A stretch of DNA of 64,000 bases, taken from assembly GCA_951406725.2 (NCBI GenBank), contig OX597820.1, positions 28,334,001-28,398,000 of the forward strand. The letters are read 5' to 3'. The DNA is from Octopus vulgaris. Taxonomy: Eukaryota. How positions within the stretch are numbered: the first letter of the stretch is position 1; each line of letters opens with the position of its first letter. The notes beneath the pieces were generated by a model. It searched no databases, was not told the origin of the DNA, and was given only the letters and a program-made list of their open reading frames with translations. Both the position numbers and the translations under genes were made by a program. Of this stretch, positions 40,331 to 45,489 are shown one piece after another.

Positions 40331-41762
40331 TATATCAGTTGAATAATGTTATAACATGGTCTGGTTTTCGTGTTTTTCATTATGGTATTTACAGAAATAT
40401 CATATTTTTTTACAATGCTGGAGTATGTTAATCTTTAAAAAGAGATATTTTTTAATGTTCAGAAAGTTTAACTATCGCTTTCATACGCTCATAGTAATCG
40501 TCAGATTTAAAAATATATTTTACTGACTGTTTGAAAATTGTTGTAAAATGACTGACTTCGTTTTCTACCTTTTAGGAAGCTCCAACAAACCTAATCATTG
40601 GAGTCCAACTTTGACCAATCCGCATGCAGCTTAAACGTCACGGTTTGCCGCGTGCACCGATATAACTGGCGTAAACACTAACTTTGATCTATTAGCTTGC
40701 GGTTTACATGTTTTATGAGTGAGCAAACTTAGTTGATTTCGATCCTTATATTTCAGTTGGTGGGAGACTTCTGTAATTGGTTTATATTTTTATGGTAAAG
40801 ATATTTTTTAATCCACATCATTAACTGTTAGTTATATTTATGGATTAGACTTGCCAACCACACTACTTATATATGTGCGTGTGTGTGTGTGTGTGCGTGT
40901 GTGTGCGTGTGTGGGTGTGTGCGTGTGTGTGTGCGTGAGTGTGTATGTGCCCGCAATAACCGTGCATAACATTATTGCACCAGCATTCGGTTTCACCCGC
41001 GCTTGCATCTACATGTTCAATGCTCACAGCAACGCCCACCTATTCAACTGGGCATGAGGTAGTTGCACAGCGAGTTATTGCACAATCACACAGACTCTCT
41101 CCACATGTCTGGCTTCATCCAATAACAAGGCAGGAGAAGATATCGAGTCGTAGGCTCAAGAATATGGGTGTGTCGTGATCTCAAGCACAACCAAAAGATC
41201 CCCTTCCATATCTGATTTTATATTAGAGTGACCATCTTCTATATACATACATATATATATATATATATATATATATATACATGTGCATGTGTGTATGTGT
41301 GTGCACACGCGCGTGTGTGTGTGTAAATATTATTGCCTGTCGAAGCCTACGATACGGGCCCATAGAATCCCATTTCAATTTGGTATCTAATAATTTTGAA
41401 TGGCTGGCAAGTCTAATTTATAAATTGGCTTAGAGTAAACTTCTTGTTTCTTTTCTTTTCTTTTTTTTTCGTTGAAGGGATTAAATGACTTCTTCAATTG
41501 GACAGTATATTGCATTAATTCCGTGGTAGCTGCTCAAAAGTATTTTTTGGCTCTAAGCTCATTAAAATAAAATACATCTCAAATATTGGAGTGGATGGTA
41601 ATTGCCTAGATAAGGAACGATTATTAATAATCACATTATTATTATCATTATTATTATTATTATTATTATTATTATTATTATTATTATTATTATTATTATT
41701 ATTATTATTATTATTATTATTATTATTATTATTATCATTATTATTATTATTATTATTATTAT

Positions 41763-42174
41763 CATTGTCATTTACTTTTAATCTGCATGTTTGATGCAAT
41801 CACTTGCCGGGGCACACCCAGCGCCCTAGAGCAAGTGAAGGTTAAGAGTTAAGAGTTAAGAGTTAAGAAGGTTAAGAGTTGTTGAAATATAGTTGAAAGC
41901 TTGGGGAGGGGAAGTAGAGAAATATCTCCATGTAATACAAACACAAACATTTACATTGATAGGGTTTTTCTAAGGATGTGGGCAGTACTTGTTAGCACAA
42001 TCTTTTGGATTTCCTTGAGACATGGTTTTCCAGGGATATTGTCTAGGTGTTTCTGACATCCCTTTTTTATCATACCTAGGGCACCTACAATAACAGGAAC
42101 AGTTTTTGTTTTAAGATTCCATATATTTTGTATTTCGATTTCCAGGTGCTTATATTTACTAAGTTTGTCAAATT
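41763..42174 (-). mobile_element. R4/Dong-like LINE 3' end (RLE C-terminus plus 3'UTR), unit 1
   Basis: KLSKYKHLEIEIQNIWNLKTKTVPVIVGALGMIKKG...EIQKIVLTSTAHILRKTLSM*, with (AAT)n on both sides. Confidence 0.88.
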
Positions 42175-42302
42175 TATTATTATTATTATTTATTATTATT
42201 ATTATTATTATTATTATTATTATTATTATTATTATTATTATTATTATTATTATTATTATTATTATTATTATTATTATTATTATTACTATCATTATTATTA
42301 TT

Positions 42303-42853
42303 GAGTGAGAAAGCAGTGCATGTCATCAAAGTAACACTGGCGTAAATTATACGAAGCCCAATATGCCCATTATGACTACCTGTCTGATAAAGGTACACAA
42401 AGCACATGCATCACAACCATGTGTGTGCGACATGGTAATCTCATATCAAGATAAACAGCACATGACCTTGCAGGTGGAGCCCAGGTAGAATTTTCTTCTG
42501 GTCCAGTAGCCCATCCCACTCAAAAGGTCCCTGAATAAGAGTTGTTTAAGGATGTTGAACGAAACACCAATGTTTCCAGATGTGAATTATTCAAACTCCA
42601 AGGAATCCCTCTCAACAAATGGCTATGATGCTCCCCCACTATTTCTGCCCATGATCAAAGATGCACATATCGTCAGCCACTAAGAGACATGCTCAACTGG
42701 TTACGGTCAAACAAGTGAGAGGCAAATCTGTTGTTTTTTTTAGCAGAATATTTGCTATAGCCCAGCTTTTACACCAAGACAAAACAATGCACATAACACT
42801 TCCAATCAAGATCAGATGCCACGAGAGCCATTGCTTGGTACTGCAACAGGGCA
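42303..42853 (-). mobile_element. Non-coding ~550 bp element flanked by (AAT)n; probable Dong-dependent non-autonomous retroposon
   Basis: Unique complex sequence with (ATT)n on both sides and no RT/RLE peptide seen. Strand is inferred from neighbours. Confidence 0.55.
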
Positions 42854-43155
42854 TATTATTATCATTATTATTATTATTATTATTATTATTATTATTATTA
42901 TTATTATTATTATTATTATTATTATCATCATCATCATCATCATCATCATCACCATCATCATCATCACCATCACCATCATCATCATCATCATCATCATCAT
43001 CATCATCATCATCATCATCATCATTATCATCATTATTATCATTATTATCATCATTATTATCATTATTATTATTATTATTATTATTATTATTATTATTATT
43101 ATTATTATTATCATTATTATCATTATTGTTATTTTTGTTGTTGTTGTTGTTGTTA

Positions 43156-43326
43156 TTTTCCAGTTGAATTGCATTTTTTTCCATGTTCCGACCGGATCTC
43201 AACCAGGAACCTAATGCAGATATATATTAGATGGAGAAAAACTTCCTGAGAATGTGGGCGTTTGGATGCTGGTTCCTCAGTATTAGTGATAGTTGTATCA
43301 TGCACAATAAAAAGATCTGTGAAGAC
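43156..43326 (-). mobile_element. R4/Dong-like 3' end, unit 3
   Basis: Minus strand gcc cac att ctc agg aag ttt ttc tcc atc taa = AHILRKFFSI*, followed by a short UTR and AAT/AAC tail. Confidence 0.65.
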
Positions 43327-43355
43327 ATTATTATTATTATCATGATTATTATTAT

Positions 43356-43655
43356 ATGTTCGACTTTGGCTTTTTATTTGTAAAAGTTTACTCCAAGTCT
43401 CACTCAGGGACCTCAAGAGACAAGTTAGAAATTCAAGTTGGTGTTATGACTAGGGTGCAATATATTTGGTTTTCCACAAAGTATTATTCTAGAGAATGTT
43501 CAAGAAATCTGTTTCCTTTAATATTTGGGATTACATAGACAGAATTTCATGTAGGTCATGGGCAGTTCTCATAAATGCTATTTTAAAAATTTCTGCCATT
43601 TTTTTTTATTTCCTGGTATCTGAGCTAGGTAGCAATCAGTCCCTTTTGCTATGAT
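43356..43655 (-). mobile_element. R4/Dong-like 3' end, unit 4
   Basis: IAKGTDCYLAQIPGN(frameshift)MAEIFKIAFMRTAHDLHEILSM*, homologous to unit 1 but with a different 3'UTR. Confidence 0.78.
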
Positions 43656-43809
43656 GATGTTGATGATGATGATGATGATGATCATCATCATCATCATCAC
43701 CCCCACCACCACCACCACCGCCACTACCACCACCATCATCATCATCATGATTATTATTATTATTATTATTATTATTATTATTATTATTATTATTATTATT
43801 ATTATTATT

Positions 43810-44102
43810 AAATGCAAATTCACAGCTTACTTTGCTGAGTAAGATAGAAAGTATCAGCAGTCCACAGCCAGCAGACCAAAGTGACACTTATTTACTTGGT
43901 CATGCTTCAAGAATACTGTAAAGATTTCTCGCAGTTGCAAGCGATGTTGATTTTTGTAGGTGTTCTACCTTCACACTTGCACCAATCTTTTTCAGCCATT
44001 GTTGATACTTGAATGGTGATACTTCAAAGTGCACCAGTTACTATTTGTATCACGTCTACTTTCTTTATTGACCTCAACCTTCGTGTTTGACCACAAACTT
44101 CG
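43810..44102 (-). mobile_element. R4/Dong-like 3' end, unit 5
   Basis: KKVDVIQIVTGAL*SI...QQWLKKIGASVKVEHLQKSTSLATARNLYSILEA*. Confidence 0.78.
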
Positions 44103-44121
44103 TATTATTATTATTATTATT

Positions 44122-44244
44122 CAGTAGTTTTAATTTTATAGCGTGCTTTCACTTCACTACCGAGCGCAGCTCTGTGTGCCTTGGGTATGTGCTGTGATTT
44201 GTTGTGATGCTTTGATGGTTATTGTATGGAAAGTGTTCTGCGTA
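44122..44244 (-). mobile_element. R4/Dong-like 3' end, unit 6
   Basis: LRRTLSIQ* followed by ~100 nt UTR and an (AAT)n tail. Confidence 0.62.
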
Positions 44245-45489
44245 ATATATATATATATATATATATTACGTATGTATATGTGTTCATGTATGTATGTATA
44301 TGTATGAATACATATATATATGTATACGCATATATATATATATATATATATATATATACATACGTATATATATATATACATATATATGCATATATATATA
44401 TATATATATATATATATATAATAGTTATTATTATTATCATTATTATTATTATTATTATTATTACATACAGTAGCCACCATAAATGGAATAATTGGTAAAA
44501 TTTAACTGGAATGTTTATAACATACTGGTGATAAATTGTGAAATCTTGAGAATAGTCGTAACCAAGATTAATTTAATGAGATATATTGATGCATATTTAA
44601 ATGCAAAATAATTCAATATGATAAAATGCACTTTAGATCTGAAAATAAATTTCATATTGATAACCTAGTTTGAAGCTTGCTGGCAGGTGAAAGAATAGAG
44701 ATTAACTAGCAAACAGTAACAACAACAAAATACTGCGAGATTGTTCAATTCATATGTCAGCGAATTTGCTTTATACACTCCGTGGTGTAGCATATTCCTT
44801 ATAGAGATATGTGGTATATTCACATACCTGCATTAAAGCTAGCGGAAATCATTACGAAAGGTCATGTATCATAAACGTAATACCACGGGTCGAAACGATC
44901 AGGTTTCTTGTGCTCCCGGCTGACATCTTGCAGTTGTGGAAGGAAATAAGTGACAGCAAACGGAGGTGTGTGCAGTGACGTGAATAGACAAGCAATTTAG
45001 CCAGTACGCATTGGGTGATGTTTACGTCATATTTTCTTCTAGATATTTCATTCTACCTAACTTATTTTTATTCAAATCAATGCCGATCAACTATTTGTTT
45101 TTCGTATTTTACACATTGTATTTTTGTATCCCATCTGCATTTAAATACATATGTTCTTTATCCCCCCACATCCTTTTTTGTCATCCAGCGTCCGTTGTCT
45201 CCACTTACACACACACACACACACATATATATATATATTACGTATATATATGTTTTCATGTATGTATGTATATGTATGAATACATATATATATGTGTTCA
45301 TGTATGTATGTATATGTATGAATACATATATATATGTATACGCATATATATATATATATATATATATATATATAAATACGTATACATATATATATATATA
45401 TATATATAAATACGTATACATATATATATATATATATATATGTATATATGCATATATATATATATATATATATATATATATATATACAC

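What the first reader, a model, noticed from the sequence alone, without database searches (positions are those of the whole stretch)
41634..44462. Co-oriented stack of five different R4/Dong 3' ends spaced by (AAT)n-type tracts
Seen: an alternating array of triplet tracts (ATT, ATC, GAT, CAC) and six unique units. Five units end an RLE-type ORF on the minus strand with homologous but distinct C-termini ([51 protein letters not shown]), each with a different 3'UTR. Established: Dong elements insert into TAA repeats and end in such repeats. Inference: each insertion regenerates the target, giving a self-extending landing pad shared by many subfamilies. The result is a repeat-spacer-like record of past invasions. 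Plus-strand transcription would be antisense to all units, so the array could act as a piRNA source.
Basis: partly seen in the sequence, partly recalled or inferred. Interest (0 to 1): 0.75.

Follow-up and report, generated by a model that had tools for sequence, protein, structure and literature searches.

The report
Retrotransposon pile-up with noncoding passenger
Five cut-off jumping genes of different families and one 556-base non-coding element sit in a row inside an AAT repeat, a pile-up that is common in this genome and likely follows from a shared landing site; the one surprise is the non-coding element, which likely borrows the jumping genes' enzyme.

Summary
The stack is real and ordinary. 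Five units (U1, U3-U6) are 5'-truncated copies of five dispersed Dong/R4-type families that end in (AAT)n. All five C-termini are as described. It has at least 9,459 copies, lies on the same strand and uses the same target.

Stacks occur genome-wide. Ten of 32 loci in a systematic 800-kb sample hold two or more units, and one holds six or more. Of 95 adjacent pairs, 91 are co-oriented. Stack sizes fit self-extension better than independent hits. Order does not follow age (34 pairs younger downstream, 35 upstream), so the stack is not a chronological record.

Contigs from a second sample and from another species label bridge the U3-U4 junction. Nothing supports a piRNA role, and it could not be tested here. 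The scan has already found Dong stacks in at least three other genomes.

The open point is U2: it has no tRNA head, no detected ribozyme and no Dong 3'-UTR hairpin, yet it behaves like a Dong passenger.

The parts
41634..41766 (-). (AAT)n tract, the tail and target downstream of U1
41767..42172 (-). U1: 3' end of a young Dong/R4-type family (73 codons of the endonuclease end plus 3' UTR; hairpin at 41791-41840; 30-nt internal duplication in the UTR); 2.2% from the family majority. Intact family members have one 1344-aa ORF.
42173..42302 (-). (AAT)n tract between U2 and U1
42303..42854 (-). U2: near-complete copy of a 556-nt non-coding, structured, AAT-targeting retroposon with fixed 5' and 3' ends; 8.7% from the family majority
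42855..43156 (-). Long degenerate tract (AAT, GAT, GGT, AAC) between U3 and U2
43157..43269 (-). U3: 3' end of an old Dong-type family (hairpin at 43176-43225); 15.9% diverged
43270..43326 (.). About 57 nt that match no Dong or U2 sequence; possibly original host DNA (inferred); also present in runs X2 and X6
43327..43356 (-). Short (AAT)n tract between U4 and U3
43357..43650 (-). U4: 3' end of an old Dong-type family (hairpin at 43377-43426); 13.5% diverged
43651..43810 (-). Degenerate tract (AAT, ATG, GGT, TGA, TCA) between U5 and U4
43811..44103 (-). U5: 3' end of an old, more distant Dong-type family (about 35% aa identity to U1 in the endonuclease end; hairpin at 43842-43890); 11.6% diverged
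44104..44122 (-). (AAT)6 tail of U6
44123..44244 (-). U6: 3' tip of a very young Dong-type family (hairpin at 44144-44194); 0.8% diverged
44245..44424 (.). (TA)n/(TATG)n block at the 5' end of U6
44425..44462 (-). Outermost (AAT)n tract

Best explanation
This is a pile-up of five 5'-truncated Dong/R4-type retrotransposons and one 556-nt non-coding retroposon (U2) inside (AAT)n, likely built by separate, strand-specific insertions over a long time and likely without a host function. Shown: each unit belongs to its own dispersed family with a fixed 3' end followed by (AAT)n; intact U1-family copies encode RT, a CCHC motif and a restriction-like endonuclease in one ORF; the families sit in AAT tracts far more often than chance; neighbours are almost always co-oriented; stacks are common and not ordered by age. 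Inferred from R2/R4 biology: the protein binds its 3'-UTR hairpin, nicks one strand of (AAT)n and primes reverse transcription there. This fixes the orientation and leaves (AAT)n on both sides, so every insertion adds a target, and the tracts then expand and decay by slippage. Inferred, about 65%: U2 RNA is copied by the same Dong enzyme, although it carries no Dong-derived sequence that I could detect.
For: Intact 1344-aa ORF with RVT_1 (E 6e-31), CCHC, PD..D/E and KxxKY motifs, no N-terminal zinc finger, flanked by (TAA)n on both sides; its only solved-structure matches are R2 proteins. An AAT-type tract lies directly upstream of 96 of 152 Dong units (U1 14 of 17, U6 28 of 35) and 49 of 61 U2 units, against 2.9% of random positions. 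Among 124 loci fetched as family hits, stack sizes 1-5 were 62/39/14/8/1, and 91 of 95 adjacent pairs were co-oriented (L117 and L118 are one duplicated locus). In 80 systematic 10-kb stretches: 22 singles, 7 pairs, 1 triple, 1 four and 1 of at least six (hand-curated; the script's own count was 32/9/3). A geometric model fits better than Poisson, giving a rough 560 stacks of six or more. A further stack of at least five units lies at L234. Ages in the window run from 0.8% to 15.9%. Younger unit downstream 34, upstream 35, tied 29. A contig from another sample bridges U3-spacer-U4 (264 nt laid, 1 difference), and one from another species label bridges the spacer and U4 (152 nt, 0 differences). 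For U2: 24 copies 5'-truncated, 19 full-length, 6 3'-truncated; four copies fused directly, in sense, to Dong ORF pieces.
Against: U2 lacks the hairpin that all five Dong units carry and shows no sequence match to any Dong sequence held, so its partner enzyme is not shown. No named Dong or R4 reference protein was available, so the clade call rests on architecture and target, not on a tree. Only one of the five junctions between units was bridged by independent data; U5-U6 was not resolved and the long tracts were not tested. In this one stack the ages fall outwards from the middle, which looks ordered (about 3-4% by chance, my arithmetic), but the pattern does not hold elsewhere: the youngest unit was terminal in 6 of 9 stacks, against 5.7 expected. 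The count of empty tracts (51) in the model fit is approximate.
Confidence: 0.85

Rival explanations
1. The stack is a host-used silencing locus: read on the plus strand, it yields antisense piRNAs against six mobile families.
For: All six units lie on one strand. Two units come from young families (0.8% and 2.2%). Molluscs have PIWI genes and piRNA clusters enriched for young transposons (PMC6128900, passages).
Against: Co-orientation follows from the strand-specific target and is seen in 91 of 95 pairs genome-wide. The locus is about 2.8 kb, and hundreds like it are expected. Three of the five Dong fragments are 12-16% diverged. There is no age order. No small-RNA run was among the 24 runs listed, and no RNA run was laid.
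Confidence: 0.07
2. U2 is mobilised by another LINE (RTE, CR1/L2 or similar) or by a Dong family I did not sample, and lands in AAT only by annealing of its (AAT)n tail.
For: U2 lacks the shared Dong hairpin, and its 3' end is pyrimidine-rich, unlike the A-rich Dong ends. Known bipartite non-coding LINEs come from RTE, Ingi, Vingi and R2 only (PMC5786205, passages).
Against: No LINE ending in the U2 tail turned up among the loci held: clustering the DNA upstream of 252 other AAT tracts gave SINE-type and simple-repeat clusters only. All 20 fetched stretches with U2 5' ends ran into the U2 body, none into an ORF. U2's upstream-AAT rate (49 of 61) matches that of young Dong families.
Confidence: 0.25
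3. The array is an assembly artefact (joins at AAT tracts) or one tandem duplication.
For: Long AAT tracts are hard to assemble; four of the five junctions were not bridged by independent data.
Against: The units are unrelated in DNA sequence. The U3-U4 junction is bridged in two independent runs. Identical architecture occurs at many loci.
Confidence: 0.03

Closest known systems
Dong (Bombyx mori), DongAg, DongBg and Darwinula Dong1/2: R4/Dong clade (PMC3812793, passages; PMC7998251, passages)
   Same: One ORF with RT and a C-terminal restriction-like endonuclease, no N-terminal zinc finger, insertion in (TAA)n. Dong-R4 in Octopus vulgaris: 51 families, 92.7 Mb, 5 recently active families (PMC13282606, main text parts 1-2 of 3 and one supplement row). 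My sample gives 3.1% Dong DNA.
   Different: The passages read do not describe multi-family stacks, a shared 3'-UTR hairpin or a non-coding passenger.
R2 SIDEs and bipartite non-autonomous LINEs (RIME, NARTc, Bov-A) (PMC3774820, passages; PMC5786205, passages)
   Same: Short non-coding elements with fixed ends that use a LINE's target and machinery, as U2 appears to do.
   Different: SIDEs are made of the LINE's own ribozyme and 3' UTR; U2 shows neither. The review lists only RTE, Ingi, Vingi and R2 as sources, not R4/Dong.
Tandem insertions of target-specific elements: Utopia in U2 snRNA genes (PMC4640811, passages); telomeric SART/TRAS and HeT-A/TART arrays (recalled, no call)
   Same: Head-to-tail, co-oriented copies at a target that survives insertion.
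   Different: Here the target is a dispersed microsatellite, and many families share it.
piRNA clusters / CRISPR arrays
   Same: Fragments of several mobile families on one strand, separated by repeats.
   Different: No ordered growth, very small size, very many equivalent loci, and no expression evidence.

Membership tests
R4/Dong non-LTR retrotransposons (U1, U3-U6) | Single ORF with reverse transcriptase | tested here: met
   1344-aa ORF in three intact U1-family copies, RVT_1 E 6e-31; RT also found in U6-family copies. For U3, U4 and U5 only partial copies were seen; they align to the U1 ORF.
R4/Dong non-LTR retrotransposons (U1, U3-U6) | CCHC motif followed by a PD..D/E restriction-like endonuclease after RT | tested here: met
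   Motifs found in P0001; homologous C-termini in all five families, about 35-65% identical to U1.
R4/Dong non-LTR retrotransposons (U1, U3-U6) | No N-terminal zinc finger | tested here: met
   No CCHH motif in the first 640 aa of P0001; U1 family only.
R4/Dong non-LTR retrotransposons (U1, U3-U6) | Divergent N-terminal Myb/SANT domain | tested here: inconclusive
   Model of residues 185-280 (pLDDT 84) is helical. Top matches include Myb/SANT-type domains (TRF, ISWI SANT, Zeste, R2) at Z 4.5-5.9, below the level that stands out.
R4/Dong non-LTR retrotransposons (U1, U3-U6) | Insertion into (TAA)n | tested here: met
   AAT-type tract upstream of 96 of 152 units vs 2.9% background.
R4/Dong non-LTR retrotransposons (U1, U3-U6) | RT phylogeny groups with named R4/Dong elements | not testable with these tools
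   None of the 93 homologues carried a Dong or R4 name.
Canonical SINE (U2) | tRNA, 5S or 7SL head with Pol III boxes | tested here: not met
   No Rfam or ARAGORN match within U2; no B box and three internal T4 runs.
Canonical SINE (U2) | Non-coding, fixed 3' end with a simple-repeat tail, 5' truncations | tested here: met
   Stops in all six frames; 24 copies 5'-truncated vs 6 3'-truncated.
Canonical SINE (U2) | 3' tail shared with the partner LINE | tested here: not met
   No BLAST match to 3' ends of 16 Dong groups; no match to the Dong hairpin model. Other LINE clades were not compared directly.
SIDE / bipartite non-autonomous LINE (U2) | 5' part derived from the LINE's 5' end | tested here: inconclusive
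   No match to the U1 5' end, and none seen by eye to the U6 5' end; 5' ends of the other families were not in hand.
SIDE / bipartite non-autonomous LINE (U2) | Self-cleaving ribozyme at the 5' end | tested here: not met
   No Rfam ribozyme hit; no HDV-like or hammerhead core in my own pattern scan, which was not run on a positive control.
piRNA cluster | Produces 1U-biased 24-32 nt RNAs | not testable with these tools
   Only contig-type runs were offered.
CRISPR-like chronological array | Polarised addition, order equals age | tested here: not met
   34 pairs younger downstream, 35 upstream, 29 tied.

The most novel reading that the evidence does not exclude
U2 is the first non-coding passenger of the R4/Dong clade: a 556-nt highly structured RNA with at least 9,500 copies and recent activity. 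It has no tRNA head, no ribozyme and no Dong-derived tail, and it enters the Dong enzyme's target-primed reaction by some other recognition route. It would be a new way for an RNA to parasitise a site-specific retrotransposon, and a natural template for loading unrelated RNA on such an enzyme.
Probability: 0.4. Interest if true: 0.6.

Novelty: new variant of a known kind. Interest (0 to 1): 0.33.

Why it matters
The stack itself matters little. It is the expected result of TAA targeting and shows how Dong elements create and recycle (AAT)n microsatellites in this genome. Two by-products are more useful. First, a bulged hairpin with strong covariation is shared by the 3' UTRs of at least eight Dong families; it is a candidate recognition signal for a clade whose RNA binding I found no study of in the papers searched. 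Second, U2 lacks that hairpin and still uses the same target. If Dong protein copies U2, this gives a direct test of how restriction-like-endonuclease retrotransposons choose their templates, which bears on their use for targeted gene insertion.

Tried and rejected
Ordered growth: rejected.

Tandem duplication: rejected.

U2 as the 3' UTR or 5' UTR of a longer LINE: its upstream neighbours are of many families, and 20 of 20 fetched stretches ran into the U2 body.

U2 as a MITE or Helitron: no terminal inverted repeats were seen in the alignment, and truncation is polar.

U2 as a known RNA: no Rfam match; the listed hits fall on simple repeats or, in one case, a tRNA outside U2. The consensus fold of U2 has almost no covariation because the copies are too alike (3 of 176 pairs), so only the folding energy (z -4.2) supports structure.

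A break hot spot near U2 position 280-286, suggested by 3 of 4 U2-Dong fusions: not supported. Of 30 loci picked for a change at that base, 28 continued as U2, 1 was the known fusion and 1 was other DNA. The fusion junction had no second copy among 40 scored hits. The fusions may be template switches or later deletions.

Host gene in the window: 133 ORFs of at least 62 aa gave only one match above its curated cut-off, a Dong RT; short exons are not excluded.

A U2 tail pattern found nothing in metagenome contigs. The U5-U6 junction could not be resolved in contigs. My first stack count was spoiled by TA repeats in the library and was redone.

Literature: three strict searches returned no paper, and searches listed none on multi-family Dong stacks or a Dong-dependent SINE. 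The primary Dong papers (Xiong and Eickbush 1993; Kojima and Fujiwara 2004; Biedler 2015) were not held. Repbase, Dfam and the Zenodo consensus library could not be seen, so U2 may already be there as an unclassified SINE.
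Full report
Setting. The window lies at G000:C7:28334001-28398000 in a 2.8-Gb genome of 227 contigs. I take it to be an octopus from its size and repeats (inference; earlier scan notes say the same). No host exon was found in the window: of 133 ORFs scanned, only a Dong RT fragment passed a Pfam cut-off.

Observation. Between 41634 and 44462 there are seven triplet tracts and six units. 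Five units end on the minus strand in the quoted C-termini. The units are unrelated to each other at the DNA level. Each belongs to its own dispersed family: first-look candidates were 2772 for U1, 12169 for U2, 228 for U3, 3044 for U4, 2629 for U5 and 364 for U6. Other copies have variable 5' ends and a fixed 3' end followed by (AAT)n.

What the five coding units are. Three intact U1-family copies carry one ORF of 1344 aa. It has RT (RVT_1, E 6e-31), a CCHC motif, PD..D/E and KxxKY endonuclease motifs, and no N-terminal zinc finger. The copy examined starts right after (TAA)n. The only solved relatives are R2 proteins. The N-terminal helical domain resembles Myb/SANT folds only weakly (Z up to 5.9). 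This is the architecture and target that the literature gives for R4/Dong (PMC7998251 and PMC3812793, passages); no named reference was on hand for a tree. The five families are about 35-65% identical to U1 in the endonuclease end. Clustering 3' UTRs in the loci held gave 16 groups. A published annotation of Octopus vulgaris counts 51 Dong-R4 families and 92.7 Mb (PMC13282606, supplement row); my systematic sample holds 3.1% Dong DNA. Although the UTR sequences differ, they share a bulged hairpin: over 18 distinct rows from 8 families, 12 of 14 pairs change on both sides, and the covariation score is 0.47 against 0.10-0.21 for slid controls (I drew the structure by eye from this alignment, which favours it). 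A model of the hairpin finds all five Dong units in the window at E 1e-6 or better and finds nothing in U2; these families were in the training set.

The sixth unit. U2 is a 556-nt element with fixed ends and stops in all frames. Exact 18-mers give 8167 5' ends, of which 3735 follow AATAATAA directly, and 9459 3' ends; these are lower bounds. Of 69 hits other than the seeds, 24 were 5'-truncated, 19 full-length, 6 3'-truncated, 9 internal and 11 cut by a locus edge, so it is a retroposon oriented like the Dong units. An AAT-type tract lies upstream of 49 of 61 copies, as for young Dong families (U1 14 of 17, U6 28 of 35), against 2.9% background. It folds far better than shuffles (z -4.2). It has no tRNA or other Rfam match, no B box, three internal T4 runs, and no ribozyme core that I could find. 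It shares no sequence and no hairpin with the Dong families held. All 20 fetched stretches with its 5' end continue into the U2 body. Tandem re-copies of its 5' end start at base 1 (L196, L253), which suggests a defined RNA start (inference). Four copies are fused in sense directly to Dong ORF pieces, but these may be later deletions, and follow-up found no hot spot or repeated junction.

How common the stack is. In 124 loci fetched as family hits (1.5 kb each side), stack sizes 1 to 5 were 62, 39, 14, 8 and 1, and 91 of 95 adjacent pairs were co-oriented (one locus is counted twice through a duplication). In 80 systematic 10-kb stretches the script found 32 singles, 9 pairs and 3 triples, with 13 of 15 pairs co-oriented. 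Reading the gaps by eye merged split elements and gave 22 singles, 7 pairs, 1 triple, 1 four (L205) and 1 of at least six units (L196). With about 51 empty tracts, a geometric model fits better than Poisson (logL -87.1 vs -91.2), and extrapolation gives about 110,000 occupied loci and some 560 stacks of six or more (rough, from 32 loci). Another stack of at least five turned up among the 20 U2 stretches (L234). The window's stack is thus in the upper tail of a common class.

Is it a record? Divergence from the family majority is 0.8% (U6), 11.6% (U5), 13.5% (U4), 15.9% (U3), 8.7% (U2) and 2.2% (U1), so the units arrived at different times. Across co-oriented stacks the younger unit was downstream in 34 pairs, upstream in 35, and tied in 29; the youngest was terminal in 6 of 9 stacks against 5.7 expected (many of these loci were chosen by a young seed copy). 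Any tract can be hit, and order carries no reliable chronology.

Is it real DNA? A contig of run X2 (another sample, same species label as the best holder) covers 43157-43420 with one difference, and a contig of run X6 (another species label) covers 43270-43421 with none. The U3-U4 junction therefore exists outside this assembly and is shared beyond one individual. U5-U6 could not be resolved because U6 is highly repeated in all four runs. The long tracts were not tested.

Mechanism. Shown: family identity, target, orientation, frequency, age spread. Inferred from R2/R4 biology (PMC3774820, passages, and recalled knowledge): the protein nicks one strand of (AAT)n and reverse-transcribes from the RNA 3' end, usually stopping early. 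The product has (AAT)n on both sides, so targets multiply where insertions already are; slippage then lengthens the tracts and converts them to GAT, AAC and GGT runs. Tail purity falls with family age (median pure run 11-12 units for U1 and U6, 4 for U3). U2 most likely rides the same enzyme; a different LINE partner is the main rival.

piRNA idea. Molluscs have piRNA clusters (PMC6128900, passages), but nothing ties this locus to them. Antisense orientation on one strand is automatic for such stacks. No small-RNA data could be laid.

Novelty. Dong targeting of TAA is known, and this scan has reported Dong stacks in at least three other genomes as ordinary (unchecked notes). I found no paper on multi-family Dong stacks or on a Dong-dependent non-coding element, but the primary Dong papers and the repeat databases could not be seen. 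A 2018 survey lists non-coding bipartite LINEs only for RTE, Ingi, Vingi and R2 (PMC5786205, passages). The stack is a known kind of outcome; U2 and the shared hairpin are what may be new. Interest 0.33.

Noticed in passing
window 24181-24729 (-) and 49018-50017 (-): Two further lone Dong fragments, each with an AAT tract on its 5' side; all Dong and U2 pieces in the window lie on the minus strand (three loci, not significant).
   Followed up: partly
3' UTRs of at least eight Dong families (alignment A2): A shared bulged hairpin with strong covariation despite unrelated UTR sequences; a likely recognition signal for the Dong protein.
   Followed up: yes
L196 (G000:C5:10000001-10010000); L234 and its inverted duplicate L247 (G000:C1:84400-98300): Stacks of at least six and at least five units, the first including a near full-length U6-family element.
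   Followed up: partly
L253 (G000:C1:30146500-30150100), L196, L022, L027: Tandem re-copies of an element's 5' end (68-nt units about 13 times at L253; 21-33-nt units elsewhere), at both full-length and truncated ends.
   Followed up: no
L005, L124, L127, L248: U2 5' parts fused directly, in sense, to Dong ORF pieces without an AAT tract.
   Followed up: yes
Many loci, e.g. L019, L024, L036; a copy also at window 37561-37856: An abundant SINE-like repeat that seems to have a tRNA-type head (my reading, not tested) borders AAT tracts on either side (clusters of 61 and 61) and appears to run opposite to Dong, so its tails may seed Dong targets.
   Followed up: partly
L009, L012, L017, L032 and others: A repeat with a hammerhead-like end, probably the Penelope end of note e1-8669850, often follows Dong or U2 tails (cluster of 18).
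   Followed up: no
L134:1490-1520 and L014 3' flank: The U1-family 5' end opens with a short hairpin; a similar sequence follows a (TAT)n run in L014.
   Followed up: no
window 44245-44424 and 45225-45480: Two similar (TA)n/(TATG)n blocks about 1 kb apart.
   Followed up: no
window 15073-15172: A run of 100 N (assembly gap or withheld stretch), 26 kb from the stack.
   Followed up: no
L117/L118 (G000:C10:89370500-89380100) and L148: Local duplications of 5-7 kb that copy whole stacks.
   Followed up: no
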